64,000 nucleotides of DNA, from contig JAFYXB010000016.1 in NCBI GenBank assembly GCA_017546345.1, positions 5,052 to 69,051 on the forward strand, written 5' to 3'. Positions 31,006 through 48,300 of this stretch are shown here, one piece after another (position 1 is the first letter of the stretch; the number at the start of each line of letters is the position of its first letter). Both the position numbers and the translations under genes were made by a program. The notes beneath the pieces were generated by a model that saw only the letters and a list, made by a program, of their open reading frames with translations, was not told the origin of the DNA and did not search any database. The DNA comes from Alistipes sp. (GTDB lineage Bacteria > Bacteroidota > Bacteroidia > Bacteroidales > Rikenellaceae).

Positions 31006-31007
31006 CT

Positions 31008-31790: not shown

Positions 31791-31831
31791 TACACAGCAT
31801 ATCAAGCAATTAACAACTAAATAAAAACATT

Positions 31832-33277
31832 ATGAAGAAGATTAGACTATTTTTGGTTATGGCACTTATCGTTGCCGTTTCCCTGTTCGTAGCCTACCGT
31901 CTTTCGAACAATGCACCTGCCGAGAACCTCCCCGAGGAGGTACGCGTATTGGCAGTCTTGGAGGAGGGCGGATGTCTTAGCTGCCACTCGGCTAACCCCG
32001 AGATTCCCTTCTATGCAAAGCTTCCCGTAGCAGGTAAGGTTGTGATGAAGGATATCGAGGATGGCTACCGCGCCTACGACATCGAGCCATTGATGGAGGC
32101 GTTGCGAAATGGCGAGACACCTCGCCCCGTAGATGTTGCCAAGGTCGAGAAGGTAGCTTTGGATAAGCGTATGCCTATGGCAAAGTACTATCTTGTGCAC
32201 TGGGGTAGTCAGATGACCAACGAGAAGCGCGACATCATCCTCGATTGGGCTATCAACTACCGCACCGACTACTACGCCGATGGTCTTGCTGAGGAGCGTG
32301 CCGGTGAGCCCATACGCCCTATCCAGCCCGCAACAAACATCGACGAGGAGAAGGCAGCTCTCGGCTTCAAGCTCTACCACGACACACGTCTATCGGTGGA
32401 TAATACCGTGTCGTGCGCTACCTGCCACGGTCTCCATACAGGTGGTGTTGATAACCACCAGTACTCTGACGGCGTAGAGGGCCGCATGGGTGGTGTGAAT
32501 GCTCCTACGGTATATAATGCAGTCTACAACTTCGTACAGTTCTGGGATGGTCGTGCACGCACCCTCGCAGAGCAGGCCGCAGGTCCTCCACTCAACCCCG
32601 TAGAGATGGCTTCAACATCGTTCGACGAGATTATCGCAAAGCTTGCGCAGGATAAGGCTATGGTTGCTGCGTTCGACAATATCTATAGCGATGGCATCAC
32701 CGAGGCAAACATCACAAATGCTATCGAGGAGTTCGAGCGCACACTCGTAACCCCCAACTCGGCATTCGACAAGTGGCTTAAGGGTGACAACGAGGCGCTC
32801 ACAGCTGAGGAGCTTCGCGGATATGAGCTATTCAAGGAGTACAACTGCGCAACATGCCACGTAGGCGCTAACCTCGGTGGCGAGAGCTACGAGCTTATGG
32901 GCTTGCGACGTCACTACTTCGCAGATCGCGGCTTGGAGCTTACCAACGAGGATAACGGTCGCTTCAAGGAGACTCAGGATGAGCGTGACCGCCACCGCTT
33001 CAAGGTGCCTGGCCTACGCAACGTAGAGCTCACATGGCCTTACTACCACGATGGTACACGTCTTACTATGGAGGAGGCTGTGCGCGACATGGCACGCTAC
33101 CAGTCTGACGTAGATATCAACGACGAGGAGACTGCAGCGATTGTTGCATTCCTCCGCACATTGACTGGTGAGTATAAGGGTGTTAAACTCACAAACGAGA
33201 ATGAGTACGGCGTAATCCACCACCACGAGGATGATGCGATGTATCTCGATCGCAACCACACTCACGATAACGAGTAA
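31832..33277 (+). CDS. ccp: Tri-heme cytochrome c peroxidase (YhjA-like)
   Basis: N-terminal TM; three CxxCH motifs (CLSCH, CATCH, CATCH); QFWDGRA, NPVEM and FKVPGLRNV motifs. Confidence 0.92.
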   Translation: MKKIRLFLVMALIVAVSLFVAYRLSNNAPAENLPEEVRVLAVLEEGGCLSCHSANPEIPFYAKLPVAGKVVMKDIEDGYRAYDIEPLMEALRNGETPRPVDVAKVEKVALDKRMPMAKYYLVHWGSQMTNEKRDIILDWAINYRTDYYADGLAEERAGEPIRPIQPATNIDEEKAALGFKLYHDTRLSVDNTVSCATCHGLHTGGVDNHQYSDGVEGRMGGVNAPTVYNAVYNFVQFWDGRARTLAEQAAGPPLNPVEMASTSFDEIIAKLAQDKAMVAAFDNIYSDGITEANITNAIEEFERTLVTPNSAFDKWLKGDNEALTAEELRGYELFKEYNCATCHVGANLGGESYELMGLRRHYFADRGLELTNEDNGRFKETQDERDRHRFKVPGLRNVELTWPYYHDGTRLTMEEAVRDMARYQSDVDINDEETAAIVAFLRTLTGEYKGVKLTNENEYGVIHHHEDDAMYLDRNHTHDNE

Positions 33278-33358: not shown

Positions 33359-35899
33359 CTACTCAACTGCGAAACGATATGCTGCACGAACTGCAAACTC
33401 ACTCGTCTTATATGGTTCAAGACAAACAACGCTGTTCGACATAAATGCTACAACCTCGATAAACTTTTCCGAGTTCTCGTTTGATGAAGAGTAATAGGTC
33501 TCGGTAAATGGCATACCACCCTTCTCTACAAGCAACTTATTGTAAGCCTTTACACTGTCGCTATTGAAGTCGCCTGTGCCGCCACTGATTGCGTTCCACA
33601 TCCAACCCAACTCCTTTGATGATGGCAAGAACCAACCATCGCCGTGCTCGATACACCACTTAAAGGCTGGGTAGTCATCAATATTCTGATTACCATAATT
33701 GAGGTTGAAGAGATCCTCGGTCATAAACTGGCCATTGCTGCTATGGTTGTATGGGCAGTCTACGTTTATTGTAGACCACTGCAAGTCGGCCTCATCGAGA
33801 GAGAAGATGTAGCAGTAACCCTTCTCGATAGCAAATACGATACCCTCTACTCCATTTACATTATAATAGTCACCAACCTTATACTCCTTATTAGGGTCGG
33901 TCTCTTCGCCAGAGCTGCCACCCTCACCATCTGAGCCTTCAACAGCCTTAGCAACAACGCGCACCTCGTTAGAGTAGTAGCCGCCATACAACGCAACAAA
34001 ACGATACTCACCCGCCACTGTAGTCGAAAACATCTTACCATTGAGCGCCTTGCTATCATCAATAGAGTAGATTGCCACACCATCTGTAATGGGCTGATTA
34101 TCGACACTAACAGAGAATGTTACACTCTCCACGCCATCGGCCTTAATCTCGCTCTTGTCTGCCGACAATGTAATATTGATATGCTCCTCGGGCTTTACAT
34201 AGTGCTCCTTCACACCATAGTAGTCGATAGATGACGAAAGTGCGCAAAGTGCCGTGTTCACAACATCGAAACGACCCAAATCATCCTTTGCCGAGACGAT
34301 AACCAACACCTCCATATTGTCGGTATTCCACGCTGCACTAAGGATAGGAAGAGAGAAGGTGCAGCCATTAGTCTCGCCCGCAACGATGATGCCGAGTGAG
34401 TCACCCGAGATATCTCGTCGGTCGTAAGCACCCGCAATATTGCGCAACGCGTGGTTGCTTATACGGTGATGCGAGTAGGTAGCACCAGCCTGGCTGGGAT
34501 TCGAGATATTGTTCTCGAGGAGCCATGCCGTAACCTTGTACTCCTGCGTAACAGCTGCCTTAACACCTACTGCAACCGATACCTCATCATTGTTCAATGC
34601 GGCATATACTGCAACACCTGCATCAGCACCGTTTGTCTTAACCAAATTGTTGATACTCTGACTATTCTTTGCGACAAAATTATCCGCACTCGTATCGCCC
34701 AGACCTCCGTAGAAGTTGAAGCGAATAGCTGGATAGCCTGCATTGGGATAGAATTTATCAACAACCGACGCAGCAGCAGAGTAGGCATTATCGCTATACT
34801 GACCCGTAGCAAAGCTACCGCCATGCACACCTACCTCGTGGTAGTAGTCGGCAACATCCTCCTCACCCAATGCCAAGAGGCCATCGATCACACGTGGGCA
34901 ATTTGTACAACCAACGCCCGTATGGTCTACAAGCAATATCTTATGAGGGAAAACTCGGCACTCGGGGCTGCTATCCTCGGGCAAGAACTCCTCCCAAGGT
35001 CTAATAGCACCATTACTACCCTCATACTCAAGCACCTCCATAGGCTTGATATAGTTGCGCTTAACCTCGAAAGATGCATCCGTAGCTATGCTTCGAAGCT
35101 CCTGACCCTTGCACTTAACCTTCACGCATATACCCTTCTCAAAGCTATTGGGAAGCAGCGCAAAGTAGAAGGCCGTAGGCTTAGATGTGAGTGTCACGCC
35201 ATCGCCACAATCGAGCGTGATGCTCATTGCGAGGCTCTTATCGTAGACTACCGTTCCCGAGAGTTCGTTATCGCCACCATCTACAGCGCCATCCTGACAC
35301 TCCTCCACCTCGGCCGTAGCAACATTAACATAGGCATAGCCAGCAATCTGCTCGCCACGGTTGCCCTCGAGCGTAATGCTCTCGACGACATCACCGTTAC
35401 CCGTAAGCTGCAACTTAAGCCATCCGCACACATTTCGCAACACGACATTATGGTCATGGCTCGCTGCAACCATAATATTACTCTTAGGGTCGTAGCTATC
35501 AGCCATATAGCTCTGCTGACTTGCCAAGACTATCTCAATATGCTCGGCATCGGAGTCTATGCGATAGCTCTTATCGTAGGGATATGCCACCACAACTCTA
35601 TCCGTAGCCTGCGCACCAGCCGCCTTAGGGTCAAACGAGATATCGCCCGAGCGATCACCCGTCTCACCAAGGAACTTTGCCTCGATATTTTCGTAAGACT
35701 TGTAAAAGAGCGAGAGCTTATCGCCTGCATTCCACACCGTCTTATTCTCGACAAGTTGAATACGCGTATCGGCATCTTCGAAGCCGACACTAAGCACCTC
35801 GGAGAGAGAGGTATTACCTCCCGACAACTCTGCGATATCGCTCTGCGCACACGCCACAAAGGCCAACGCAGCAACTACAAAAATCACAAGACGTTTCAT
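33359..35899 (-). CDS. Fimbrillin-like lipoprotein with Omp28/thioredoxin-like, Ig-like and C-terminal lectin-like domains
   Basis: Lipobox FVAC; DTRIQL; LRNVCGWLKL; HTGVGCTNCP...HG...GYP...NHALR; IKADGVESVTF; VGDYY...WFLPSSKEL...VRAAYRF. Confidence 0.8.
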   Translation of the reverse strand: MKRLVIFVVAALAFVACAQSDIAELSGGNTSLSEVLSVGFEDADTRIQLVENKTVWNAGDKLSLFYKSYENIEAKFLGETGDRSGDISFDPKAAGAQATDRVVVAYPYDKSYRIDSDAEHIEIVLASQQSYMADSYDPKSNIMVAASHDHNVVLRNVCGWLKLQLTGNGDVVESITLEGNRGEQIAGYAYVNVATAEVEECQDGAVDGGDNELSGTVVYDKSLAMSITLDCGDGVTLTSKPTAFYFALLPNSFEKGICVKVKCKGQELRSIATDASFEVKRNYIKPMEVLEYEGSNGAIRPWEEFLPEDSSPECRVFPHKILLVDHTGVGCTNCPRVIDGLLALGEEDVADYYHEVGVHGGSFATGQYSDNAYSAAASVVDKFYPNAGYPAIRFNFYGGLGDTSADNFVAKNSQSINNLVKTNGADAGVAVYAALNNDEVSVAVGVKAAVTQEYKVTAWLLENNISNPSQAGATYSHHRISNHALRNIAGAYDRRDISGDSLGIIVAGETNGCTFSLPILSAAWNTDNMEVLVIVSAKDDLGRFDVVNTALCALSSSIDYYGVKEHYVKPEEHINITLSADKSEIKADGVESVTFSVSVDNQPITDGVAIYSIDDSKALNGKMFSTTVAGEYRFVALYGGYYSNEVRVVAKAVEGSDGEGGSSGEETDPNKEYKVGDYYNVNGVEGIVFAIEKGYCYIFSLDEADLQWSTINVDCPYNHSSNGQFMTEDLFNLNYGNQNIDDYPAFKWCIEHGDGWFLPSSKELGWMWNAISGGTGDFNSDSVKAYNKLLVEKGGMPFTETYYSSSNENSEKFIEVVAFMSNSVVCLEPYKTSEFAVRAAYRFAVE

Positions 35900-35967
35900 C
35901 GTATACGTTTATAAGCTTTATAGAACTTATTGCGACACAAACACTTAGTCGCAAAATCCGACAACAA

Positions 35968-35999
35968 GGGGCCATCCAACATCTTTGCTGGATAGCCCC
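35968..35999 (-). promoter_or_regulatory. Hairpin between the micro-ORF and the pilin-like gene (leaky terminator or mRNA stabiliser)
   Basis: GGGGCTATCCAGC-AAAGAT-GTTGGATGGCCCC followed by an interrupted TTGTTG. Confidence 0.6.
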
Positions 36000-36036
36000 T
36001 CTTTATAACATTAGGTTATTGGTACAACGCTAAAGA

Positions 36037-36180
36037 TTAGTACCAAGCGCTTACTGACCAACTCTGAGTCTCGTCTACGATAGGATCCTCGAGATTTGAC
36101 TCCTGGAAGCCTGCCTCAACAACTGCCTCAACAATCTCAACCTCGGGAGCGAGGTAGCTTGCATAAAATTTAGTATTCAT
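36037..36180 (-). CDS. 47-aa acidic micro-protein (YLAPE family) upstream of a pilin-like gene
   Basis: Hand translation MNTKFYASYLAPEVEIVEAVVEAGFQESNLEDPIVDETQSWSVSAWY*; homologous to 45157-45297. Confidence 0.85.
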   Translation of the reverse strand: MNTKFYASYLAPEVEIVEAVVEAGFQESNLEDPIVDETQSWSVSAWY

Positions 36181-36256
36181 AGTTATATAGTCTTATAGTT
36201 AATAAATTCTCATCTGTTAGCAACACACTTTTTGCACATTAGGCTAAAAGATAGCA

Positions 36257-36264
36257 CAAAAATA
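36257..36264 (-). promoter_or_regulatory. -7 promoter element (TATTTTTG) for the micro-ORF/pilin unit
   Basis: TAnnTTTG about 77 bp upstream of the ATG at 36180. Confidence 0.6.
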
Positions 36265-36582
36265 CAAATATTTTTTCAAAAACAAAGAGGACCGCATGAT
36301 TTTTATCAAACAGTCCCCTGCCTCGCCGCAAAAAACGGTCGAGAAAACACCCAATAAAAACTAAAAAGATCAATCTATAAGCAGATCTACACGCCCGTAT
36401 TTATCCCATTTAAGCACCACTATACAACCACAAAGTGCATAAGAGAGAGCCACTTTAAGCGTGCATATCTTTCATGGTGCAAAGATGCAGCATTATTTTC
36501 AAGCACACAATCGCCCTCTTTAGGGAAATTTAGCCGACGAGCATCCCCGATTATAGGGATTGGCAAATTGGAGAATTATTTG

Positions 36583-36590
36583 TATCTTTG
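36583..36590 (+). promoter_or_regulatory. -7 promoter element (TATCTTTG) for the hemerythrin-LuxR operon
   Basis: Perfect TAnnTTTG; preceded by palindrome ATCCC-N8-GGGAT at 36543-36560. Confidence 0.7.
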
Positions 36591-36643
36591 CATAATGGTT
36601 AATAGATGATTTATAAAGTGTAACACAAACAACTGAAAGAGAA

Positions 36644-37351
36644 GTGAATAAGATAAACTATCATAGTCCAGCTGCCTCTCTCGCGCCCGACATGAAGATT
36701 TTTGAGCTGATAGACGCCTACCCCGTGCTGCTATCCGTATTTTCGCGTTTGGGCATAACACTCCCCTTCGGCGACATCTCCGTAGAGCAGATGTGCCGTA
36801 GAGATGGACACTCGCCCGAGCTATTCCTGCTGCTCTGCCGTATGCACATCGACACCTCATTCCGCCCACGCCCCTCGGAGCTTCGCGAAGATATGCTACT
36901 CTCGGTTGTCGGCTACCTGCGAGCTACACATCGCTACTACACCGACTATATGTTACCTCACGCAGGCGAGCACCTCGACGAGATTTTGAGCTACTGCGAC
37001 GAACTATCTCGCAGCATGCTCACGAAGTTCTATAGCGACTACGTGAGCTACATTCGAGAGCATCTCGAAGAGGAGGAGCAGACCATATTTGCTAGCGTTG
37101 AGAGTGCAGCAGCAGGCGAACGCCTCAACCTCGCATCCTTAGAGGTGCCACACAGCGATATCGACGATCGCACCAATGATATAGCATCGCTCATAATCAA
37201 GTGTCTACCCGAGGCGGCACCCACACAGCTACGCTGTGCTATGCTCAGCCACATATACGCACTGCGCGACGACCTACGACGCCACTACAACGTCGAGGTG
37301 GCTCTTTTGCGACCCTTGATAGCACAAACTATTAATACCTCGAAGCAATGA
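36644..37351 (+). CDS. Hemerythrin-domain protein (Ric/ScdA-like N-terminus)
   Basis: RLGITLPFGDISVEQMC, YLRATHRYY, HLEEEE, HSDIDD and HYNVE motifs. Confidence 0.8.
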   Translation: MNKINYHSPAASLAPDMKIFELIDAYPVLLSVFSRLGITLPFGDISVEQMCRRDGHSPELFLLLCRMHIDTSFRPRPSELREDMLLSVVGYLRATHRYYTDYMLPHAGEHLDEILSYCDELSRSMLTKFYSDYVSYIREHLEEEEQTIFASVESAAAGERLNLASLEVPHSDIDDRTNDIASLIIKCLPEAAPTQLRCAMLSHIYALRDDLRRHYNVEVALLRPLIAQTINTSKQ

Positions 37352-37923
37352 AGCGTTACCGCATAGCAATCATAGAGCCTGCATCGGTAATCGGCGAGGG
37401 CATAGCCTCGATGCTCGCAGCAAGTGGCGAGGTGGAGGTGCTCTTCTGCTGTCGCTCCATTGCCGAGGCGAAGGGCTACACACGTAGTCACGACGAGGTG
37501 GAGATACTCTTCGTGGCTGCAACTCTCGCACCGCAGCTCAGTGGCATATCGCTATTTGACAACGTGCCAATGGTAGCGATACAGAGCACTCTCGTAGATA
37601 ACGAGACGTTACGTCGCTTTGCCGCCACAGTGTCGATATTCTCAACGACAGAGGAGCTACTACGCACCCTTCACGAGACCCTCGACCGCGCCGCAGAGCC
37701 AAGCTACAGCGAGAGCCACGAACTGTCGGAGCGCGAAAAAGATGTGCTTATTCTTGTAGCACGCGGACATACAAACAAGGAGATAGCCTCGGAGCTAAAC
37801 ATTTCGCCCCACACGGTAATCTCGCATCGCAAAAATATCGTGCATAAGACTGGTATCCGCTCGGTGGCAGGTCTTACGGTATATGCCGTACTTAACAAAT
37901 TGATAACCAACGAACAACTATAA
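37348..37923 (+). CDS. LuxR-family HTH regulator with degenerate receiver-like domain
   Basis: LSEREKDVL...TNKEIASELNISPHTVISHRKNI; 4-bp overlap with the hemerythrin gene. Confidence 0.92.
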   Translation: MKRYRIAIIEPASVIGEGIASMLAASGEVEVLFCCRSIAEAKGYTRSHDEVEILFVAATLAPQLSGISLFDNVPMVAIQSTLVDNETLRRFAATVSIFSTTEELLRTLHETLDRAAEPSYSESHELSEREKDVLILVARGHTNKEIASELNISPHTVISHRKNIVHKTGIRSVAGLTVYAVLNKLITNEQL

Positions 37924-37925
37924 CT

Positions 37926-38666
37926 ATGAAATTCGAACTTTGTGCCTACTCCGTAGAGGCATGTCACACCGCAGCACGCCTCGGTGTCAATCGTGTAGAG
38001 CTATGCGCCTCACCCGCTGAGGGTGGCGTAACACCTTCGCTTGCGACCATCGAGCGCGTTGCAGCAATTCCCAACCTCGACCTTAGCGTTATGATTCGCC
38101 CACGTGGTGGCGATTTTCTCTACTCCGACGAGGAGTTTCAGACAATGCTCCAGGATATTGCCCACGCTCGCAAGGCGGGTGCTACGGGCGTAGTATTCGG
38201 CATCCTCACACCAGACGGCAAGGTAGATGTGGAGCGCACACGCGCCCTTGTCGAGGCATCCGAAGGTATGGAGACGACGTTCCACCGCGCGGTAGATATG
38301 ACCGAGGATTACGCTCAGGCCGTAGCTGATGTAATCGAGGCAGGATGCACACGCATTCTTACATCGGGAGGTTACGACAAGGCGATAGACGGCATCGATA
38401 ATATTCGTCGTGCAGTCGAGGTATCGCGTGGCCGCATTGAGATTATGGCGGGTAGTGGCGTGGTGGCCGCAAATGCCGCAGAGCTCAAAGCTGTAGGCGT
38501 TGATGCGCTACACTTCAGCGCCAAGAAGATGGTCGCAGGAGGTATGCAGTATCGCAATCCTCGAATCTCGATGGGAGGCTCGTCGGCTGTCGATGAGTTC
38601 GCACTCCGCGTAGTAGACGAGGCCGAGGTAGAGGCAATCCTAAAACTCTGTTCTGCAAATAATTAA
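37926..38666 (+). CDS. cutC: Copper homeostasis protein CutC
   Basis: RVELC, GGVTPS, MIRPRGGDF, TFHRA and RILTSG motifs. Confidence 0.93.
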   Translation: MKFELCAYSVEACHTAARLGVNRVELCASPAEGGVTPSLATIERVAAIPNLDLSVMIRPRGGDFLYSDEEFQTMLQDIAHARKAGATGVVFGILTPDGKVDVERTRALVEASEGMETTFHRAVDMTEDYAQAVADVIEAGCTRILTSGGYDKAIDGIDNIRRAVEVSRGRIEIMAGSGVVAANAAELKAVGVDALHFSAKKMVAGGMQYRNPRISMGGSSAVDEFALRVVDEAEVEAILKLCSANN

Positions 38667-38679
38667 ACCAACGCACAAT

Positions 38680-39888
38680 ATGAAAAAACTACTTCCCCTT
38701 TTCCTTGCCATAGTAGCAGCTTTGGCATACTGCTTTTGGCCAAAAAACAACATTAGCGAGGAGCTACGAGCAGCCATCGAAAGTTCACCACGTAGCACCG
38801 AGCTAACAGCACTATATGAGTCTACGCCCCGTGAGTCGAAGCGCGATATGGAGTATCTTATGGTCAATATGCCCGTGGCCGACCGCGATACAATGTCGCT
38901 CGCACTACTTGCTGAGAATGTGGAGTATGCGACACGTGCTCGCAAGGAGTTCGAGTGGTGCAAGTCGCTTCCAGAGGATGTATATCTTAGCGATGTTTTA
39001 CCCTATTTCGTAGTAGACGAGGTGCGCGATTCATGGCGTAAGGAGCTCTACGAGCTTTACGCTCCAGAGGTGGCTGAATGCAAGACAATGGAGGAGGCAA
39101 TAAAGATTGTAAATAGCAATATTCCTCGCATGACAGGTGTTGATTACAACACACTTAGAGAGAAGACCAACCAGAGTCCTCGCGAATCTATTCGTCAAGG
39201 CATGGCATCGTGCACGGGCCTTGCTATCCTGCTTGTCGATGCACTTCGCTCGGTGGGTATTCCCGCACGTTTTGCCGGCACTGCTTCATGGCACGACAAC
39301 CGCGGCAACCACAGCTGGACGGAGGTTTGGCTCGATGGCGAGTGGCGAGTTACGGAGTATTATATGCCCTCGAAGCTCGATCATCTTTGGTTTATGGCCG
39401 ATGCATCGAAGGCCAATGCCGAGGATCGCAACTACGCTATCTATGCCACACATTTTGGCGGTGCTAACGACTGGTTCCCAATGGTTTGGTGCGACGAAGA
39501 TGACAATCTACCCGTAGAGCTTCTACCTCAGACAATCGGTGCGGAGAATGTCACACAGCGATATATCGACCTGGCCTACGAGCAGTACACACGCCACTTG
39601 GAGGCTGGCACTCACACCTTTCTCCGCATTGCGGGTTATGCCGATGCATCGAAGCGCGAGCACTCGGGCGACCGCGTGGCGATGGGTGTCGATGTATTCT
39701 GCGGCACGGAGCAGATGGGCGGAGGTCTTACGGCTGGCCCATTGCGCGATATGAACGATATGTTCTCGGTGTTGCTGCCCAAGAATTGCGATTATGAGTT
39801 GCGCTACTACAACGCTGCAGGCGAGCTTCAGCGTCAGAGCGTACACCTCGGCGAGGAGCCTCAGACGGTAGCTATCGCGCTTAAGTAG
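38680..39888 (+). CDS. Exported transglutaminase-like domain protein
   Basis: N-terminal signal or anchor; ASCTGLAI, LRSVGIPAR and NHSWTEVW motifs. Confidence 0.85.
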   Translation: MKKLLPLFLAIVAALAYCFWPKNNISEELRAAIESSPRSTELTALYESTPRESKRDMEYLMVNMPVADRDTMSLALLAENVEYATRARKEFEWCKSLPEDVYLSDVLPYFVVDEVRDSWRKELYELYAPEVAECKTMEEAIKIVNSNIPRMTGVDYNTLREKTNQSPRESIRQGMASCTGLAILLVDALRSVGIPARFAGTASWHDNRGNHSWTEVWLDGEWRVTEYYMPSKLDHLWFMADASKANAEDRNYAIYATHFGGANDWFPMVWCDEDDNLPVELLPQTIGAENVTQRYIDLAYEQYTRHLEAGTHTFLRIAGYADASKREHSGDRVAMGVDVFCGTEQMGGGLTAGPLRDMNDMFSVLLPKNCDYELRYYNAAGELQRQSVHLGEEPQTVAIALK

Positions 39889-39911
39889 AGTCTTTCGAAA
39901 TAGATAAATTT

Positions 39912-39941
39912 ACGCAGTGTTCGTTGAGCACTGCGTTTTTT
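39912..39941 (+). terminator. Intrinsic terminator
   Basis: ACGCAGTGTTC/GAGCACTGCGT stem followed by Ts. Confidence 0.8.
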
Positions 39942-40044
39942 CGTAATAAATATGCGATAATCGCATCAATTATTAACTTTTTTTATTAATTTTGTCGCAT
40001 TATATATATGTATAAACAAAAACAAACAATAAAAACGATAAATT

Positions 40045-40776
40045 ATGGGAAGAGCATTTGAGTATCGCAAGGCGAGAAAGATGAAGCGCTGGGGACACAT
40101 GGCGCGTGTATTTACCAAGATTGGTAAGGAGATCGAAATGGCAGTTAAGGCATCTGGTCCAGATCCTTCGTCAAACTTGCGTCTTCGACTTTTGTTGCAG
40201 AACGCTAAGGCTGAGAATATGCCTAAGGAGAACGTTGAGCGTGCTATCAAGCGTGCTACAGATAAGGACTCTGCAGACTACAAGGAGATGATCTATGAGG
40301 GTTATGGTCCTCACGGTATCGCCGTTTTGGTAGAGACCGCTACTGATAACACAAACCGTACTGTTGCATCTGTACGTATGTACTTCAACAAGTATGGCGG
40401 TGCACTCGGCACATCAGGCTCTGTAGGCTTCATGTTCGAGCACAAGTGCGTATTTAAGTTCAAGCCTACCGAGGGCGTAGACTTCGAGGAGATGGAGCTT
40501 GAGATGATCGACTTCGGTGTAGATGAGTTCTACGCTGAGGAGGGCGAGGTAACAGTATACGCTGCTTACGAGTCGTTCGGTCAGATTCAGACTTGGATCG
40601 AGGATAAGGGCTACGAGCTCGTATCGGGTGAGAGCGTACGCATCCCAACAGATCAGAAGGAGCTTACAGCAGAGCAGCGCGAGGCGGTTAACAAGCTTAT
40701 CGAGCACCTCGAGGAGGATGATGACGTGACTAACGTCTACACTACAATGGCCGAGTCGGAGGAGGACGAGGAGTAA
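40045..40776 (+). CDS. yebC: YebC/PmpR-family protein
   Basis: MGRAFEYRKARK, NMPKENVERAI, YEGYGPHG and TDNTNRT motifs. Confidence 0.96.
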   Translation: MGRAFEYRKARKMKRWGHMARVFTKIGKEIEMAVKASGPDPSSNLRLRLLLQNAKAENMPKENVERAIKRATDKDSADYKEMIYEGYGPHGIAVLVETATDNTNRTVASVRMYFNKYGGALGTSGSVGFMFEHKCVFKFKPTEGVDFEEMELEMIDFGVDEFYAEEGEVTVYAAYESFGQIQTWIEDKGYELVSGESVRIPTDQKELTAEQREAVNKLIEHLEEDDDVTNVYTTMAESEEDEE

Positions 40777-40818
40777 TCCTTGACCCTTTCGCATGGCGCA
40801 AAAACAACTTTCACAGCT

Positions 40819-43800
40819 ATGGAAAAATTTACAGAGTATAAAGGTCTTGATTTGGCTGGCGTAGCCGACGAGGTGTTGGCACGCTGGACCGAGGAGGACA
40901 CATTCCACAAGAGCATCACAACACGTGAGGGTCACCCAACATTTGTATTCTACGAGGGTCCCCCCTCAGCAAATGGCACCCCAGGTATCCACCACGTTAT
41001 GGCGCGTACTATCAAGGATGTATTCTGCCGCTATAAGACACAGCAGGGCTACCTCGTACACCGTAAGGCCGGTTGGGATACACACGGTCTTCCCGTAGAG
41101 CTTGGCGTCGAGAAGAAGCTCGGTATCACAAAGGAGGATATCGGCAAGAAGATCACCATCGAGCAGTACAACAAGGAGTGCCGCGAGGCGGTGATGGAGT
41201 TCACCGACATCTGGGAGGACTTGACACGCCGTATGGGCTACTGGGTAAATATGGACGATCCATATATCACCTACGACAACAAGTTCATCGAGACGTTGTG
41301 GTGGCTTTTGAAGCAGCTCTACGAGAAGGGACTTCTCTATAAGGGCTACACTATCCAGCCCTACTCGCCTGCAGCAGGTACAGGTCTTTCGACTCACGAG
41401 CTCAACCAGCCAGGTTGCTACCGCGATGTGAAGGATACAACATGTACAGCTCAGTTCCGCATCCTCGACCCTAAGGCCGAGATGGAGGGTTGGGGCACAC
41501 CCTACTTCCTCGCATGGACAACAACACCTTGGACATTGCCTTCAAACACTGCACTCTGCGTTGGTCCTAAGATCGACTATGTTGCAGTACGCACATACAA
41601 CCCCTACAACGGTGAGAAGATGACGGCTGTCGTTGCCGAGCCATTGCTCTACTCGATCTTCAACAAGAAGGCTGAGGAGCTCAAGCTCGAGGATTACAAG
41701 GCTGGCGACAAGCTCATCCCATTCGAGGTTGTTGGCAAGTGGAGAGGTACGGAGCTTTGCGGTATGCACTACGAGCAGCTTTTGCCATGGGTTAAGCCCG
41801 TTAAGGCTGACGAGAAGGGCAACTGGTCGGAGGCTGCAGCTGAGGCGTTCCGCGTAATCTTGGGTGACTACGTAACAACTGAGGATGGTACGGGTATCGT
41901 ACATATCGCGCCTACGTTTGGTGCGGATGATGCCTTCGTAGCACGTCAGGCAGGCATTCCTTCGCTATTTATGATCAACAAGCGTGGCGAGACACGTCCT
42001 ATGGTTGATTTCACCGGTAAGTTCTACCTTACAGAGGAGCTCGATGAGGAGTTCGTAAAGCAGTGCGTAACTGAGGAGTATAACGAGTATGAGGGTCGCT
42101 TCGTGAAGAATGCATACGATCCACAGTACACCGTAGATGGTCGCTATGATGAGAAGGCTGCAGCTGCTGCCGAGAACCTCGACATCTACATCTCGCTCAA
42201 GCTTAAGGAGGCAGGTAAGGTATTCAAGATTGAGAAGCATACCCACAACTACCCCCACTGCTGGCGTACCGATAAGCCCGTGTTGTACTACCCTCTCGAC
42301 TCATGGTTCATCCGCACTACAGCACTCCGTGAGCGTATGATGGTGCTCAACAAGACCATCTACTGGAAGCCCGAGTCTACAGGTACTGGCCGCTTCGGTA
42401 AGTGGTTGGAGAATATCAACGACTGGAACCTCTCACGTTCACGCTTCTGGGGTACTCCATTGCCAATCTGGGCTACGGAGGATCGCTCGGAGTTGAAGTG
42501 CATCGGCTCTATCGAGGAGCTTATCGCCGAGATCGAGAAGGCGGTAGCCGCTGGCGTGATGACCGAGAACCCATACAAGAACTTCAAGGTGGGCGATATG
42601 TCTAAGGAGAACTACTCTACAGATGTTATCGACTTGCACCGTCCTTATGTAGATAATATCGTCCTTCTCTCGTCTAAGGGCGAGCCTATGCGCCGCGAGC
42701 CAGACCTCATCGATGTATGGTTCGACTCAGGTGCTATGCCATACGCACAGGTACACTACCCCTTCGAGGCGAAGGAGGGCTTCGATCAGATCTATCCCGC
42801 AGACTTTATTGCTGAGGGTGTCGATCAGACACGTGGCTGGTTCTACACGCTCCACGCTATCGCTGTGATGTTGTTCGACTCTGTAGCGTTCAAGAATATC
42901 ATCTCTAACGGCTTGGTACTCGACAAGAACGGCAACAAGATGTCGAAGCGTTTGGGCAACGCCGTAGATCCATTCGAGGTACTCAGAAAGTATGGTGCCG
43001 ACGCTACACGTTGGTATATGATCTCTAACTCGCAGCCTTGGGACAACCTCAAGTTCGACGTTGATGGCGTTGATGAGTGCCGCCGTAAGTTCTTCGGTAC
43101 ACTCTACAACACCTACTCGTTCTTCGCACTCTATGCAAATATCGACGGCTTCACAGGCCGTGAGGCTGAGGTGCCCGTAGCACAGCGCCCAGAGATCGAC
43201 CGCTGGATCCTCTCGGAGCTCAACACTCTTATCCGCGATGTCACCACATCGTTGGAGGAGTACGATCCTACACCTGCAGCACGCCGCATCGACGCCTTCG
43301 TAAACGAGAACCTCTCGAACTGGTACGTGCGTCTTAACCGTAAGCGTTTCTGGGGTGGCGAGATGAGCGAGGATAAGTTGGCTGCATACCAGACACTCTA
43401 CACTTGCTTGGAGACTGTAGTGAAGCTTGCTGCGCCTATCGCACCATTCATCACAGACCGCATCTTCCGCGACCTCAACGCAATGAGTGGCCGCCACACC
43501 GAGGAGAGCGTACACCTCTCAACATATCCTAAGGTTGATGAGTCGCTCATCTGCCCCGAGTTGGAGGCACGCACAGCACTCTCACAGCAGGTATCATCTA
43601 TGGTATTGGCATTGCGTCGTAAGGTGAATATCAACGTACGTAAGCCTTTGCAGAAGATCATCATCCCTGTTTTGGATAAGGAGATGGCAACACGCATCGA
43701 GGCTGTTCGCCAGCTTATCATGAACGAGGTGAACATCAAGGATATCGAGCTTATCTCGGATACAACAGGCATCATCACTAAGCGCATCAAGCCTAACTTC

Positions 43801-44304
43801 AAGACTTTGGGTGCTAAGTGTGGTAAGTATATGAAGCAGGTTGCAGCTCTTGTTGCAACATTCACTCAGGAGCAGATCGCTGCTGTTGAGAACAACGCTG
43901 AGACTATCCTCGAGGTTGAGGATCAGAAGTTCGTAACTACGGCCGCTGACTTCGACATCACATCGGAAGATATGCCAGGTTGGTTGGTTGCATCGGAGGG
44001 TAAACTTACCGTAGCTTTGGATATCACCATCACCGAGGAGTTGCGCCGCGAGGGTGTAGCCCGCGAGTTGGTAAACCGTATCCAGAACATCCGTAAGGAG
44101 TCTGGCTTCGAGGTTACGGACAAGATCCGCGTTGAGATCGAGCTTCAGGATGCTACTGCCGCAGCTATCGAGAGCTTTGCTGAGTATATCGCACAGCAGA
44201 CTCTTGCTGTTGAGGTTAAGGCTGTTGCCGAGCCTCAGGGTGAGACTGTTGTCGATTCGGAGCTTGACGAGGCAACGCTCAAGATCGCCGTATCGCGCAT
44301 CTAA
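40819..44304 (+). CDS. ileS: Isoleucine--tRNA ligase, type 2
   Basis: YEGPPSANG, GWDTHGLP, WTTTPWTLP, YPHCWR, EGVDQTRGWF and KMSKR motifs; probable start MEKF at 40819. Confidence 0.98.
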   Translation: MEKFTEYKGLDLAGVADEVLARWTEEDTFHKSITTREGHPTFVFYEGPPSANGTPGIHHVMARTIKDVFCRYKTQQGYLVHRKAGWDTHGLPVELGVEKKLGITKEDIGKKITIEQYNKECREAVMEFTDIWEDLTRRMGYWVNMDDPYITYDNKFIETLWWLLKQLYEKGLLYKGYTIQPYSPAAGTGLSTHELNQPGCYRDVKDTTCTAQFRILDPKAEMEGWGTPYFLAWTTTPWTLPSNTALCVGPKIDYVAVRTYNPYNGEKMTAVVAEPLLYSIFNKKAEELKLEDYKAGDKLIPFEVVGKWRGTELCGMHYEQLLPWVKPVKADEKGNWSEAAAEAFRVILGDYVTTEDGTGIVHIAPTFGADDAFVARQAGIPSLFMINKRGETRPMVDFTGKFYLTEELDEEFVKQCVTEEYNEYEGRFVKNAYDPQYTVDGRYDEKAAAAAENLDIYISLKLKEAGKVFKIEKHTHNYPHCWRTDKPVLYYPLDSWFIRTTALRERMMVLNKTIYWKPESTGTGRFGKWLENINDWNLSRSRFWGTPLPIWATEDRSELKCIGSIEELIAEIEKAVAAGVMTENPYKNFKVGDMSKENYSTDVIDLHRPYVDNIVLLSSKGEPMRREPDLIDVWFDSGAMPYAQVHYPFEAKEGFDQIYPADFIAEGVDQTRGWFYTLHAIAVMLFDSVAFKNIISNGLVLDKNGNKMSKRLGNAVDPFEVLRKYGADATRWYMISNSQPWDNLKFDVDGVDECRRKFFGTLYNTYSFFALYANIDGFTGREAEVPVAQRPEIDRWILSELNTLIRDVTTSLEEYDPTPAARRIDAFVNENLSNWYVRLNRKRFWGGEMSEDKLAAYQTLYTCLETVVKLAAPIAPFITDRIFRDLNAMSGRHTEESVHLSTYPKVDESLICPELEARTALSQQVSSMVLALRRKVNINVRKPLQKIIIPVLDKEMATRIEAVRQLIMNEVNIKDIELISDTTGIITKRIKPNFKTLGAKCGKYMKQVAALVATFTQEQIAAVENNAETILEVEDQKFVTTAADFDITSEDMPGWLVASEGKLTVALDITITEELRREGVARELVNRIQNIRKESGFEVTDKIRVEIELQDATAAAIESFAEYIAQQTLAVEVKAVAEPQGETVVDSELDEATLKIAVSRI

Positions 44305-44338
44305 TCTCAGAGCTTACCTAATATTATATATAGGTAGA

Positions 44339-44376
44339 GAAAGGGCTATCCAGCTTATGCTGGGTAGTCTTTTTCT
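44339..44376 (+). terminator. Probable intrinsic terminator after ileS
   Basis: GGCTATCCAGC/GCTGGGTAGTC stem followed by a T tract. Confidence 0.65.
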
Positions 44377-44501
44377 TATATTCCTCGACCGAGGTTTTGC
44401 GATAAATTTATGCTTTTTATTGAAAAATGTTTGCAAGTTTCATATTTTTTGCTTAATTTTGTTTACTAAACGATATATAACCGTACTAAAACGCTACGAT
44501 T

Positions 44502-44876
44502 ATGGCAGATGAGAAGACCAGATATAACGATTCGGAGCTTGAGGAGTTCCGCCAGTTGATAGAGAAGAAATTAGCATCGGCACGTGCCGACTATGAGATG
44601 TTGCGCTCGGCAACCAACAACGAGAACGACACCGAGGATTCGTCACCTACGTTCAAGGTGATGGAGGAGGGCGCTACAACGCTCTCGAAGGAGGAGTATG
44701 GCCGCTTGGCACAGCGTCAGGCGAAGTTCATCCGCAACCTCGAGATGGCTCTTGTGCGTATCAACAACAAGACCTACGGCATCTGCAAGACCACGGGCAA
44801 GCTCATTCCTCGTGAGCGTCTATTGCGTGTACCCCACGCTACGGAGTGCATCGAGGCTAAAGAGGCAAGACGATAG
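44502..44876 (+). CDS. dksA: TraR/DksA-family transcription factor
   Basis: RYNDSELEEF, RQAKFIRNL and TYGICKTTGKLIPRERL..VPHAT; follows ileS as usual in Bacteroidota. Confidence 0.9.
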   Translation: MADEKTRYNDSELEEFRQLIEKKLASARADYEMLRSATNNENDTEDSSPTFKVMEEGATTLSKEEYGRLAQRQAKFIRNLEMALVRINNKTYGICKTTGKLIPRERLLRVPHATECIEAKEARR

Positions 44877-44949
44877 AGGCTTGCATCGTAGCGTGTGCGC
44901 ATAACATAGGGATAATTCGCTCTATCGAGTAGGGCGACACCATATTATG

Positions 44950-44988
44950 ACGAGTGTGTTTAACTTTCGGGTTAGACACGCTCGTTTT
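44950..44988 (+). terminator. Intrinsic terminator after dksA
   Basis: ACGAGTGTGTTTAAC-TTTCGG-GTTAGACACGCTCGT followed by Ts. Confidence 0.8.
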
Positions 44989-45053
44989 GCGCATAAAAGA
45001 ACTGATTATCAGTCAAAAGTATCAACATTGTAGTGAATATTATTAGATTATAT

Positions 45054-45085
45054 TTTGTAATTCTTAGAAAATTTTTATATTTTTG
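45054..45085 (+). promoter_or_regulatory. Bacteroidota -33/-7 promoter for the micro-ORF/pilin unit
   Basis: TTTG at 45054-45057 and TATTTTTG at 45078-45085. Confidence 0.65.
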
Positions 45086-45156
45086 TAGTAGCTTTTGCGT
45101 GCGGACGACACTCAACAGCCCCTCTAATCGCTAATTACTAACTAAAACATAAGCTT

Positions 45157-45297
45157 ATGAACAGAAACACACACACCACTTACCTCGCGCCAGAGGCCGA
45201 GGTAGTAGAGAGCATCGTCGAGGCAGGATTTGCTTACTCTTCAGACAGCAACCTCGAAGATCCCAAAGTAGAAGATCCAAAGGAGTGGGAAAATTAA
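45157..45297 (+). CDS. 46-aa acidic micro-protein (YLAPE family) upstream of a pilin-like gene
   Basis: Hand translation MNRNTHTTYLAPEAEVVESIVEAGFAYSSDSNLEDPKVEDPKEWEN*; ends 12 bp before the next ATG; homologous to 36037-36180. Confidence 0.85.
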   Translation: MNRNTHTTYLAPEAEVVESIVEAGFAYSSDSNLEDPKVEDPKEWEN

Positions 45298-45309: not shown

Positions 45310-48300
45310 ATGAAAAGATTTATATTGTACCTATTTGCTGCCTTAGCTTTTGCAGCGTGTACACAGAACGACATCGAAGAGCTTACGAACAATAAGCTAT
45401 TTGTTCCCGACAGTATTAGCGTAGGTTTCGAGAATGACGACACCCGTATCCAGCTCTTAAACAACAAAACCGTGTGGAACGAGGGTGACTGCGTTTCGGT
45501 CTTCTACCGTTCATTCGACAACCTTATGTGGCAGTTCCAGGGCCAGACGGGTGATCGTACTGGCGAGTTACTTCTCGTAGATGGTTATGTTGGCAACCAG
45601 ACTATGGAGGATGTAATCGTCGTATATCCATACAATGCGGACTACCTCGTCAGACTATCTGACCAGAGCGTCGAGGCTCGTATGCCATCGGTGCAGTACT
45701 ACCACGAGAATAGTTACGACCCTTCGTGCAACATTATGATTGCTCAGGGCTCAGACCGCAATTTCGTGCTTAAGAACGTATGCGGCTGGGTTAAGATTGA
45801 GCTTACGGGTGATGGCCAGGCCGTGCAGAGCCTCACTCTCACGGGCAACAACAACGAAGCTGTAGCGGGCGATATCTCGATTGTAGCTACTGACGCTACC
45901 GCAACCTATTTTTCGGCAAATAGCTCAGCCCCCAGCGATGATTCCGAGCTTGGCGGCGACCTTGTGTTTGACAATCAGACCATAACATCGTTAAAGCTAC
46001 AGTGCAACGGTGTAACACTATCATCTGAGCCTACAGCATTCTACATTGCGCTTCCTCCTCAGACCTTTAGCAATGGTTTCACCGTAGAGGTTAAGTGTCG
46101 AGGCTATCAGCCTATGGTTCTCCAGCGCAATGATGCAATCGCTATCGAGCGCAACCATATCCAGCCTATGCAGGCTGTTGAGTTCGAGGCCGAGGAGAGC
46201 AACGAAGTAGATGTTCCCAACAACGAGATTTGGTATACTGCAACCGATCAGGTATGGCCCAATAATGAATGGGATTTTGGCGCAACGCTTATCGACAACT
46301 ACTTTGACTACTACACTGGTCAGGGTATCTTGGTATTCGATGGCGATGTAACACGTATTCCAGCGGGTGCTTTTAGTTATAATGGAGGTCTTACAAGCAT
46401 TACTCTTCCAAATAGCATAGCAGAAATCGAGAGTTTTGCTTTTGATAATTGTTGGGGACTTACAACCATGACTATTCCCGACAATACCACAGTTATCGAG
46501 CCAGGAGCATTTTCGAGTTGCGGCAATCTTCAGGAGTTCAAAGGAAATTGTGTAACTGAGGATGGCCGATGCCTTGTGCTTGATAATGTACTACTTGCAT
46601 TTGCTCCTGCAGGTATCACATCCTACACAACTCCATCAGGTGTGCGAACCATTGCAGCAAATAGTTTTTCTTCTTCTCACGACCTAACGGAGATTGTCAT
46701 CTCTGAGGGTGTAGAGATAATTGGAACTTATGCCTTTAGTAGTTGCACCAACCTCTCAACTATTATATTACCCGAGAGTATATTGCATATCCGCGCCTAT
46801 GCATTCGATTATTGCTATTCATTGGCAGACATCACACTTCCATCAAATCTACAGTCAATTGAAGATTGGGCGTTTGTAAATTGTGCAAACCTTACTCAGA
46901 TAACTATTCCAGATAGTGTTCAGGGGTTTGGTCAAGGCATCCTCGCTGGTTGTTACAACCTTGAATACATCGATTGTCAATATGCTACCGAGGATGGTAG
47001 AAGTTTGATTATCGACGGCTGTTTGTTCGCAATTGCTCCTAAAGACCTATCGTCATATACTGTTCCTGAGGAGGCTACACATATTGGTTCAGGAGCACTA
47101 TGTGGTCTTGAATTCCCAGTCCTCCTTCATGATAATATATCTGTCATTGGCGATAATGCATTTGAAAGGTGTTCGTTTAGCACTATTACACTTCCTGCAA
47201 ACCTCGAGTATTTGGGATATGCTGCATTCCTGTATTGTTCGAATCTGACAGATGTATATTGCACAGCTACGACACCTCCATCTATGGGCGGAATGTTGTT
47301 TGGCTACAACTCACAAAATCGCAATATCTATGTTCCTTTGGAGTCATTAGAGGACTATAAGACAGCTGACGGCTGGAGAGAGTTTGCTTCATGTATCATC
47401 GGTTATGACTACGAGACTGGCGAGACCGTGATGCCAACTATCAACCTCGGCGTCTGCGGAACTATCACAGATTGGGGCAACAGTGACATTCCCGATATTG
47501 CAATGGAGTATCTCGAGGAGCGAAATCTCTATGTTGCATACGGTGTTGAGCTAACTACTGCCGATCGCTTCAAGTTGCGTGCAGACAATACTTGGCAAGG
47601 CTTGTATAACATTGGACTTTCATGGGATGATTCCGGCTACGCTATGGTGGCAAACACCTATAAGGAGTTGATGAATAGCCCAGAAAGCCAGGATATCCAT
47701 ATCGCAGTAGATGGCAGCTACGATATATACTTCAACCTCGAAACATTGACACTCTACTTTATGGAGGCGGACGCAGATCCTGATAATGCTACGGAGGCTC
47801 CCGAGCACTCTGAAATACCAGATGGACAATATCGTATCGGTATTGTTGGTTCATTCACGGACTGGGGAAACTTCCCCGATATTGCGATGAGCTATGATGA
47901 GGATATGGCTATGTATGTCTACTATGGCTTAGAGTTTAACGAGGGTGATGAGTTCAAGCTACGCGTTAACGAGTCGTGGGATATTAACTATGGTTTGGAG
48001 TACGACTATGCATCATCATTTGGTGGTAATAACTTCACCTATCTTATTAATGACGGACAAAATATCATCGTTTACAAGACAGGTAGCTACGACCTCTACT
48101 TTGATCCCAACTATTGCGAGTTCTACTTCATGGAGGCAGACGTAGATCGTTCGGAGGCTACGGAGCCTACAATTCTTCCTCAACTAGCAGCACCTCAGAA
48201 CGTTCGTGTTTTCAATGAGAGTGCAACATCATTTACCCTAACTTGGGACTATGTCGAGAATGCAACATCATATATGATCAATGATGGCAACGGTGGAGTA

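What the first reader, a model, noticed from the sequence alone, without database searches (positions are those of the whole stretch)
36037..45297. Homologous unannotated micro-proteins head two separate type V pilin-like transcription units
Seen: two short ORFs below the ORF-track cutoff, about 9 kb apart on opposite strands. 36037-36180(-) encodes MNTKFYASYLAPEVEIVEAVVEAGFQESNLEDPIVDETQSWSVSAWY and 45157-45297(+) encodes MNRNTHTTYLAPEAEVVESIVEAGFAYSSDSNLEDPKVEDPKEWEN. They share YLAPExExVExxVEAGF, SNLEDPxV and a late Trp, and many conserved residues use different synonymous codons (GCT/GCG, CCC/CCA, GGC/GGA, TTC/TTT, TCA/AGC), which points to selection on the protein. Each follows a TAnnTTTG promoter motif and is the first gene before a paralogous DTRIQL fimbrillin-like lipoprotein. 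Neither has a Sec signal peptide. Inference: a conserved micro-peptide + pilin/adhesin module of unknown function, where the peptide could be an assembly factor, an exported or modified peptide with a conserved leader and variable tail, or a regulatory uORF. Similar YxxP short ORFs occur in other Bacteroidales, so the family may be widespread but uncharacterised.
Basis: partly seen in the sequence, partly recalled or inferred. Interest (0 to 1): 0.85.

Follow-up and report, generated by a model that had tools for sequence, protein, structure and literature searches.

The report
Tiny modified peptides completing pilus adhesins
These two tiny genes belong to a large family of peptides that usually sit just upstream of pilus-type adhesin genes and, in this bacterial family, occur almost only in genomes that also carry a set of peptide-binding, -cutting, -phosphorylating and -exporting genes; the peptides are likely processed and exported, and their tail is predicted to slot into the adhesin as its missing strand, which would be a new way to build or anchor pili.

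Summary
Both ORFs are real and under purifying selection. They belong to a family with 9 copies in this genome and 3,011 clusters in a public library. Of 149 fetched peptides with downstream DNA, 133 directly precede a type V pilin-fold lipoprotein.

Y-x-x-P-x-[LVIA] is the motif bound by RiPP recognition elements (RREs). Across 121 family genomes, peptide and RRE agree in 118. An archaeal-type signal peptidase (60 genomes) and a P-loop kinase (61) occur only where the peptide does. Relatives encode peptide, kinase, peptidase, RRE, nucleotidyltransferase and ABC exporter as one cluster, the gene set of the recently described LPP RiPPs of Bacillota. This genome holds these genes dispersed.

A complex model places the peptide's tail, after the conserved Ser, in the pilin's donor-strand groove (score 0.80, best control 0.18; the mark was reached by 116/157 solved and 2/215 mismatched pairs; may reflect memorised geometry).

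Best reading: an LPP-like precursor (about 0.85) whose exported core likely acts as a free donor strand for adhesin-bearing pilins (about 0.5). Nothing was shown experimentally.

The parts
36037..36180 (-). Precursor peptide 1 (P0001, 47 aa). RRE-type leader Y9-x-x-P12-x-V14...E22; predicted core from G24 with conserved Ser28 (36097-36099) and an acidic, aromatic-ended tail
45157..45297 (+). Precursor peptide 2 (P0002, 46 aa), same architecture. Ser28 at 45238-45240; residues 29-46 (45241-45294) are the part modelled in the pilin groove
36257..36264 (-). TAnnTTTG promoter-like motif, 84 nt upstream of peptide 1 (common motif, weak evidence)
45078..45085 (+). TAnnTTTG promoter-like motif, 79 nt upstream of peptide 2 (common motif, weak evidence)
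35966..36001 (-). 16-bp RNA hairpin between peptide 1 and its pilin; may set a peptide:pilin mRNA ratio (untested)
   Evidence: -47.3 kcal/mol for the 137-nt gap, z -5.55, 0 of 200 shuffles as stable
33359..35899 (-). Partner lipoprotein P0003 (846 aa): lipobox Cys17, Thr-Arg46 site, pilin-like domain (about 1-295), Omp28 domain
45310..49470 (+). Partner lipoprotein P0004 (1386 aa): lipobox Cys17, Thr-Arg46 (45445-45447), type V pilin fold (17-300), BspA-type LRRs. No C-terminal donor strand directly after the pilin domain is evident, as other domains follow
46153..46173 (+). Last strand region of the pilin domain of P0004 (N282-Q288); the peptide's K37-K42 run along it in the complex model

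Best explanation
The two ORFs are likely precursor peptides of an LPP-like RiPP pathway encoded elsewhere in the genome, and the released core is predicted to act as a free donor strand that completes the neighbouring adhesin-bearing type V pilin. Step 1 (inferred from motif, co-occurrence and RRE residues; about 0.85): the genome's single PqqD-family RRE binds the YxxPx[LVIA] leader. Step 2 (inferred by analogy with LPP; about 0.7): the P-loop kinase phosphorylates the conserved Ser, and the archaeal-type signal peptidase removes the leader, most likely after V-E-x, leaving a core of about 19-23 aa that starts G-F-x-x-S. Step 3 (inferred; about 0.65): the MsbA/PglK-type ABC protein exports the core, possibly after the nucleotidyltransferase links the phospho-Ser to a lipid or glycan. 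Step 4 (modelled; about 0.5): the acidic, aromatic-ended tail enters the pilin's acceptor groove as a stalk or anchor pilin's donor strand would, so the adhesin can be stabilised or tethered without a separate anchor pilin. Shown directly: the ORFs, codon-level constraint, cassette arrangement, gene co-occurrence and clustering. Not shown: any binding, modification, export or display.
For: Leader: Y, P and E are invariant in 40 rows. In 149 library hits: Y1 100%, P4 100%, V/I/L/A at position 6 97%, E14 100%, G16 100%, S20 96% (the top hits of the profile, so biased). This fits the [Y/W]xxPx[L/V/I/F/A] RRE motif and resembles the LPP precursor motif YxxPxVLxHQxIxFETxxS (PMC13381572 section 6). 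RRE: PF05402 hit; its model folds best to TbiB1 bound to a lasso leader (5V1U, E 2e-4); N35 and D73 are invariant and Y63 and W77 near-invariant in 32 rows, with Y63/D73/W77 at the spacing of LppB Y60/D70/F74. Co-occurrence in the same 121 family genomes, own included: peptide 63, RRE 62; both 61, peptide only 2, RRE only 1, neither 57. Peptidase 60 and kinase 61, all in peptide-positive genomes. The split recurs inside genera: own genus 18 both / 9 neither / 1 RRE only of 28; g11 7 both / 4 neither. Clusters: L131 peptide-kinase-peptidase-RRE-NTase-ABC; L073 and L074 peptide-lipoprotein-RRE-NTase-kinase beside capsule genes; L072/L135 four peptides then RRE-NTase-kinase-peptidase. Own genome: ABC-kinase-peptidase operon on C22, RRE on C44, an NTP_transf_5 on C49. 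The peptidase is archaeal/SEC11 type. The ABC's best bacterial full-length PDB match is PglK (E 6e-59, against 5e-45 for MsbA). Partner: type V pilin fold (3UFI E 1e-9, also Mfa4 and Mfa3) with R46 in at least 90% of 41 rows; two clostripains are present. Complex model: score 0.80, best of 3 controls 0.18; the mark was reached by 116 of 157 solved and 2 of 215 mismatched pairs; runs share at least 58% of contacts; partner pLDDT at least 55. Confident contacts cover only peptide 29-46, running in parallel register along N282-Q288 and touching the loop after the Arg site. That matches the geometry described for the donor strand in polymerised Mfa1 (PMC13655056 passages). FimA and Mfa1 donor strands are 21 aa; the peptide core is 19-23 aa in 84 of 149 hits. 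In 3 of 15 pilin loci from five machinery-less genomes, a full-size ORF ending in a similar Trp-containing acidic tail stands where the peptide would (L254, L257, L260; judged by eye).
Against: Solved type V pilins with a strand in this groove exist, so the complex score may come from memory. One unrelated 30-mer control was also laid on the pilin with 102 confident contacts (score 0.18). I cut the pilin at the presumed Arg site myself, and my own alignments were used, so the calibration holds only roughly. The sequence test of the interface was not significant: contact columns partial r 0.118 against a shifted null of 0.058+-0.042, 9 of 83 shifts as high. Tail and leader both track the pilin, and their difference is not significant (41 and 38 of 500 permutations), so cassette co-inheritance explains it. 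19 of 27 related pilins in this genome have no upstream peptide. Related pilins occur in 101 of 121 genomes, including all 10 peptide-less genomes of the own genus, with 1-3 matches against 3-19 (profile built partly from peptide-linked pilins). 12 of 15 such loci show no donor-like gene upstream. This genome also has a conventional pilin locus (C35) with donor-like C-termini. Three peptides in L135 end at the Ser and have no tail. The Ser sits one residue further from the Tyr than in LPP, so the cut site is uncertain. The own NTP_transf_5 scores only E 1e-32 against the cluster profile, versus 7e-116 for G107, so it may not be the cognate enzyme. Order-wide the RRE family is common (134 of 201) while this peptide profile hits 7 of 201 (one of the 7, G276, lacked the motif). 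Kinase and ABC fall below curated cut-offs. Genomes are kin, so no p-value is given.
Confidence: 0.5

Rival explanations
1. The peptides are LPP-like precursors whose product works apart from the pilin's fold, for example as a primer or anchor for surface glycan, a matrix component or a signal. They sit before pilin genes only for co-expression and co-inheritance with adhesion functions.
For: All the machinery evidence. Clusters lie beside capsule genes (L073, L074), as LPP clusters do. Tail-less peptides exist (L135). Some peptides have no pilin downstream. Pilins exist without the system. The interface covariation test was not significant.
Against: 133 of 149 peptides stand 1-144 nt before a pilin. 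Tails keep a narrow length and an aromatic end (101 of 128 with W/F/Y in the last three residues). The complex model passes its controls and uses only the tail.
Confidence: 0.3
2. The peptide binds the pilin groove only transiently, as a chaperone or cap during export, and is later displaced by a donor strand from a conventional stalk or anchor pilin (such as the C35 locus). It does not anchor anything.
For: The complex model fits this equally well. A conventional locus with donor-like C-termini is present. Most pilins lack a cis peptide.
Against: Type V assembly is described as needing no separate chaperone strand (10.64898/2026.07.16.738973 passage). A chaperone role gives no reason for a conserved phospho-acceptor Ser, a nucleotidyltransferase or a flippase-like ABC (inference).
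Confidence: 0.1
3. The ORFs are cis-acting regulatory uORFs (translational coupling, stalling or attenuation) for the downstream lipoprotein.
For: First position in the unit, short gaps, a strong hairpin after peptide 1, and no signal peptide.
Against: Gaps fall in all three frames. Presence follows RRE, kinase and peptidase genes encoded far away. Peptides head the machinery operon itself and occur as a four-copy array. The leader is an RRE motif.
Confidence: 0.06
4. The peptides are lasso peptide precursors, cyclised between Gly24 and an acidic residue at core positions 7-9.
For: YxxPx[LV] leader at lasso spacing; Gly at the predicted core start and acidic residues at 7-9 in both window peptides; the RRE model is closest to lasso B1 proteins.
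Against: No Asn_synthase-type cyclase and no Transglut_core3 peptidase in the genome (81.6% complete), and none recognised in the gene lists of L072-L074 and L131. Glu, not Thr, at the penultimate leader position. Tails are acidic throughout, so the position 7-9 match is expected by chance.
Confidence: 0.02

Closest known systems
LPP (linear polyphosphorylated peptide) RiPPs of Bacillota, lppAKBSDN (Popov et al. 2026, PMC13381572; abstract, sections 6, 7, 8, 9, 11, 12 read; supplements searched by term)
   Same: YxxP leader with Glu near its end and a conserved Ser just after; discrete RRE, archaeal-type signal peptidase, HprK/PEPCK-type P-loop kinase, NTP_transf_5 and MsbA-type ABC; no cyclase; link to capsule loci; variable C-terminus.
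   Different: Different phylum (the paper calls LPPs restricted to Bacillota; its supplements have no Alistipes, Rikenell, Prevotella or fimbri hits, and one row seen lists a Paludibacter peptidase fusion with an RRE and no precursor). Consensus is V-E-x-G-F-x-x-S with Ser at Tyr+19, not FETxxS at Tyr+18. Up to 12 precursors per genome are scattered, each before a pilin, with usually one machinery. The ABC of this genome is PglK-like. LPP function is unknown.
Type V pili (FimA/Mfa1 stalks, FimB/Mfa2 anchors, Mfa4/Mfa5 tips; PMC13655056, PMC12632263, 10.64898/2026.07.16.738973, passages read)
   Same: Partners are lipoproteins with the two-domain pilin fold, a conserved Arg after the first strand and C-terminal adhesin domains, like tip pilins. 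The modelled peptide tail lies where a donor strand lies.
   Different: In known systems the donor strand is the C-terminus of a full Sec-exported, lipidated pilin. Here it would be a separate 45-aa gene product without signal peptide, made by RiPP-type enzymes. No Mfa2, Fimbrillin_C or P_gingi_FimA Pfam hit in this genome.
Lasso peptides (paeninodin type; TbiB1/TbiA 5V1U)
   Same: YxxPx[LV] leader and a discrete RRE of the same fold; paeninodin clusters share kinase and NTP transferase.
   Different: No macrolactam cyclase or B2 cysteine peptidase; Glu instead of Thr at -2.
HPr-rel-A system (TIGR04353 PqqD-family chaperone, TIGR04352 kinase)
   Same: Weak hits of the own RRE (E 9e-4) and of the L131 kinase (E 6e-4).
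   Different: Both are far below the curated cut-offs; no precursor or pilin link appears in the family descriptions returned.

Membership tests
LPP RiPP | Leader with [Y/W]xxPx[L/V/I/F/A] RRE-binding motif | tested here: met
LPP RiPP | Full precursor consensus YxxPxVLxHQxIxFETxxS | tested here: not met
   Consensus here is YxAPxxEVxExxVExGFAxS; Ser one position further
LPP RiPP | Discrete RRE with Tyr-binding Asp | tested here: met
   spacing compared, no direct alignment to LppB
LPP RiPP | Archaeal-type signal peptidase I linked to the RRE | tested here: met
   TIGR02228 E 1e-7 (below cut-off), SEC11 E 3e-5, invariant Ser/His/Asp; next to the RRE in relatives, on another contig in G000
LPP RiPP | HprK-like kinase | tested here: inconclusive
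   Invariant Walker A and DD motif; only weak PEPCK and HprK_rel_A hits
LPP RiPP | NTP_transf_5 nucleotidyltransferase in the cluster | tested here: inconclusive
   Met in L072, L073 (Pfam) and L131, L134, L249 (own profile); not seen in L082, L133, L251; the own copy is unlinked and divergent
LPP RiPP | MsbA-like ABC transporter | tested here: met
   (MsbA 259 bits, PglK 251 bits, both below cut-off)
LPP RiPP | Precursor inside the gene cluster | tested here: not met
   Not for the window peptides (machinery on C22, C44, C49); met by homologues in L072/L135, L073, L074, L131
LPP RiPP | Ser (poly)phosphorylation and RRE-dependent leader cleavage | not testable with these tools
   Ser in 114 and Thr in 14 of 128 at that position; needs mass spectrometry
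Lasso peptide | Macrolactam cyclase and B2 cysteine peptidase | tested here: not met
   (genome 81.6% complete)
Type V pilin (partners) | Lipoprotein with double beta-sandwich pilin fold | tested here: met
   Invariant Cys; model pLDDT 89, top 13 listed PDB hits are Bacteroidales adhesin/fimbrial structures; C44 partner passes Mfa_like_1
Type V pilin (partners) | Conserved Arg/Lys protease site after the anchor strand | tested here: met
   Arg in at least 90% of 41 rows; motif in 30 of 31 own pilins; cleavage itself not shown
Type V pilin (partners) | Assembly into a pilus by strand exchange | not testable with these tools
   needs microscopy or biochemistry
Type V anchor pilin (peptide) | Signal peptide, lipobox and pilin fold | tested here: not met
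   46-47 aa, acidic, no Cys in either window peptide
Type V anchor pilin (peptide) | Donor strand of about 21 aa that fills the acceptor groove | tested here: inconclusive
   Model passes (0.80 vs 0.18); covariation not significant

The most novel reading that the evidence does not exclude
These bacteria use a RiPP pathway to make miniature anchor pilins. A 45-aa precursor is cut, phosphorylated on Ser, coupled through that phosphate to a lipid or surface glycan, flipped out by a PglK-like transporter, and inserted as a free donor strand into adhesin-bearing type V pilins. One machinery would serve a dispersed, interchangeable library of peptide-adhesin cassettes, making a RiPP a structural subunit of a pilus.
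Probability: 0.3. Interest if true: 0.93.

Novelty: new variant of a known kind. Interest (0 to 1): 0.82.

Why it matters
LPP-type RiPPs have no known function (PMC13381572, Discussion), and discrete RRE genes are common across this order (134 of 201 sampled genomes) without assigned substrates in the papers I could search. This finding gives one branch of them concrete substrates, a candidate modified residue, and a physical target that can be tested with synthetic peptides and one recombinant domain. It also offers an answer to how genomes with dozens of stand-alone tip-like pilins and no recognisable anchor pilin could display them. At the least it extends the LPP kind to a second phylum, with scattered precursors and thousands of unannotated small genes. 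If the donor-strand role holds, it is a new route of pilus assembly, joining two fields.

Tried and rejected
Pfam and NCBIfam give nothing for the peptides. PDB sequence searches with the peptide profile or the RRE gave only chance hits. The ESM Atlas returned only unnamed clusters at 0.89-0.90, for peptide 2; peptide 1 did not complete.

Pfam Peptidase_S26 and S24 missed the cognate peptidase in the own genome; it was found with a profile from relatives' clusters.

Stop-codon readthrough fusing peptide and pilin is rejected: gaps fall in all three frames. My first idea, that the leader mimics the pilin's last strand, was dropped because the registers differ and the model uses the tail. Decay of the machinery in G034, G068, G115 and G119 is rejected: the split matches lie in single open frames with insertions.

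The mirror test of tail against contact columns was not significant (128 of 133 pairs used, pairs above 60% pilin identity dropped). The one RNA run found held 8% of the words and did not cover the peptide: no information. The sigma-70 scan is not suited to this promoter type. The G276 order-level hit lacked the motif and was dropped. The peptide-RRE and peptide-peptidase complexes were not modelled.

Literature searches with no paper holding the required terms. One search listed no paper with the LPP phrase among 8 shown; one search listed 15 of 16, none with PqqD. PMC10352776 and PMC12710340 (passages) did not describe this system. Earlier findings of the scan: none.

Full report
Observation. 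Both ORFs exist as written. The 20 codons from the conserved Tyr give pS 0.78 and pN 0.215 between the two, and third positions are the least conserved across 62 homologues. An iterated profile finds 9 members in the 1.6-Mb, 81.6%-complete genome, with a clean gap to background. Eight of them lie 12-137 nt before a related lipoprotein and one lies before a purine nucleoside phosphorylase-like gene (label from my reading of the sequence). The promoter motif is present but common. Its promoters and pilins are of Bacteroidales type; my guess of Rikenellaceae is recall, not a tool result.

The partners. P0003 and P0004 share a 295-aa N-terminal domain (43%), followed by Omp28 or LRR domains. A model of P0004 17-300 (41 rows, pLDDT 89) matches solved type V pilins, best 3UFI at E 1e-9, also Mfa4 and Mfa3. 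Cys17 is invariant and Arg46 near-invariant. The genome has 27 such genes (31 with a broader profile), and only 8 have a peptide directly upstream. It has two clostripains, no Mfa2, Fimbrillin_C or P_gingi_FimA hit, and one conventional-looking pilin locus on C35.

The family. The 40-row profile hits 3,011 clusters at 50% identity in a library of 1.84 billion proteins. The top 149 usable hits of 150 show Y1, P4, hydrophobic 6, E14, G16, F/I17 and S20, then an acidic tail, mostly 9-22 aa, with Trp in the last three residues in 94. Of 153 distinct peptides in all loci fetched up to, 149 had at least 400 nt downstream. Of these, 133 are followed by a pilin-profile gene, 3 by other lipoproteins, 4 lie in machinery clusters and 9 have neither. 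These loci were the better-scoring hits, not all hits. Order-wide this profile hits 7 of 201 genomes, one of them false, so this form is concentrated in a few families; divergent forms elsewhere were not sought.

The leader is an RRE ligand. PMC13381572 (sections 6-9, 11, 12 read) describes LPP RiPPs. [quoted passage not shown] This genome has one discrete RRE, whose model is closest to lasso B1-leader complexes and which keeps the Tyr-binding Asp spacing. It also has an ABC-kinase-peptidase operon on C22 and an NTP_transf_5 in a capsule locus. It has no lasso cyclase or B2 peptidase.

Co-occurrence and clustering. In one sample of 121 family genomes, peptide and RRE are both present in 61, both absent in 57, and discordant in 3 (cross-tabulated by hand). 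With the first 9-row profile the figures were 49, 57 and 15. The peptidase (60) and kinase (61) occur only in peptide-positive genomes. The pattern repeats inside five mixed genera, so it is not one inherited split, though kin remain non-independent. G084, a one-contig genome, lacks kinase and peptidase hits and has one peptide before a pilin ORF that looks broken. Physical clusters settle the link: L131, from another family, reads peptide-kinase-peptidase-RRE-NTase-ABC; L073 and L074 put peptide, lipoprotein and machinery beside capsule genes; L135 has four tandem peptides before RRE-NTase-kinase-peptidase. Of 29 RRE loci of 3 kb, 16 show ABC, kinase or peptidase neighbours. The peptidase is SEC11/archaeal type, the kinase a PEPCK/HprK-type P-loop protein (weak hits), and the own ABC is closest to PglK among bacterial structures.

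What the core does. In type V pili a C-terminal donor strand of 21 aa fills the groove of the next subunit; tip pilins lack one (PMC13655056, PMC12632263 and 10.64898/2026.07.16.738973, passages). The partners here look like tip pilins, and the predicted core is about that length. I modelled P0004 47-300 with peptide 17-46. The score was 0.80 against a best control of 0.18; the mark was reached by 116 of 157 solved and 2 of 215 mismatched pairs; runs agree in at least 58% of contacts; partner pLDDT is at least 55. Only residues 29-46 are placed with confidence. They run parallel to N282-Q288 and touch the loop behind the Arg site, as described for polymerised Mfa1. This supports but does not show binding: like geometry has been solved, and one control also sat on the pilin with many contacts.

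Independent tests of the interface are weak. Tails are conserved within pilin subfamilies across genera, but leaders track the pilins too, and the contact columns are not significantly special. Pilins also occur without the system (101 of 121 genomes), though fewer per genome in the own genus. None of 15 pilin loci from five machinery-less genomes has a peptide. In 3 of them a full-size ORF with a Trp-containing acidic tail stands upstream; in 12 none does.

Verdict. The family works like LPP, but it fails LPP's exact consensus and phylum range, so I file it as a variant, not a member. I put the LPP-like precursor reading at about 0.85, the donor-strand role at about 0.5, and the full anchored mini-pilin reading at about 0.3. 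Ten searches of the held library found no description of this peptide-pilin link; most subscription papers are not covered. Expression, modification, export and binding are all untested.

Noticed in passing
window 35966-36001 (-): Strong 16-bp hairpin between peptide 1 and its pilin (z -5.55); could leave peptide mRNA in excess for use by peptide-less pilins.
   Followed up: partly
window 24547-25428 and 25529-26977 (-): Two more pilins of the same subfamily (293 and about 480 aa) with no upstream peptide; the 293-aa one ends right after the pilin domain.
   Followed up: partly
L009:431-574 (G000 C77:1830-1973 +): A ninth peptide stands before a purine nucleoside phosphorylase-like gene, with three promoter-like motifs upstream; a candidate supplier in trans or a relic.
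   Followed up: no
L135:563-1036 (-): Array of four tandem peptides; three are 24-25 aa and end at or one residue after the conserved Ser, so the minimal product may be about five residues.
   Followed up: no
G000 C35:1-7065 (+) and C33:521-5661 (-): Conventional-looking type V loci whose small subunits end in acidic Trp-containing tails resembling the peptide tails.
   Followed up: partly
L244, L245, L246: Peptidase, kinase and ABC genes of G115, G119 and G034 carry in-frame insertions of tens to about 100 residues yet stay open.
   Followed up: partly
L254:430-1479, L257:436-1485, L260:1-801 (oriented to the pilin): In machinery-less genomes a full-size ORF with a Trp-containing acidic C-terminus directly precedes the pilin, in the peptide's position.
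   Followed up: partly
L132:5719-9885 and 18383-19999: G248 (family f6) has three RREs; one lies in a separate cluster whose neighbours look, by eye, like a sulfotransferase and asparagine-synthetase-like proteins, 10 kb from a peptide-pilin cassette.
   Followed up: no
window 30022-33277 (+): ResB-like, cytochrome c assembly and di-haem cytochrome c peroxidase genes converge on P0003.
   Followed up: no
G000 contig ends (C17, C24, C41, C60, C19, C15, C57, C44): 8 of the 31 pilin genes run off a contig end, suggesting repeated or variable adhesin domains that break the assembly.
   Followed up: no
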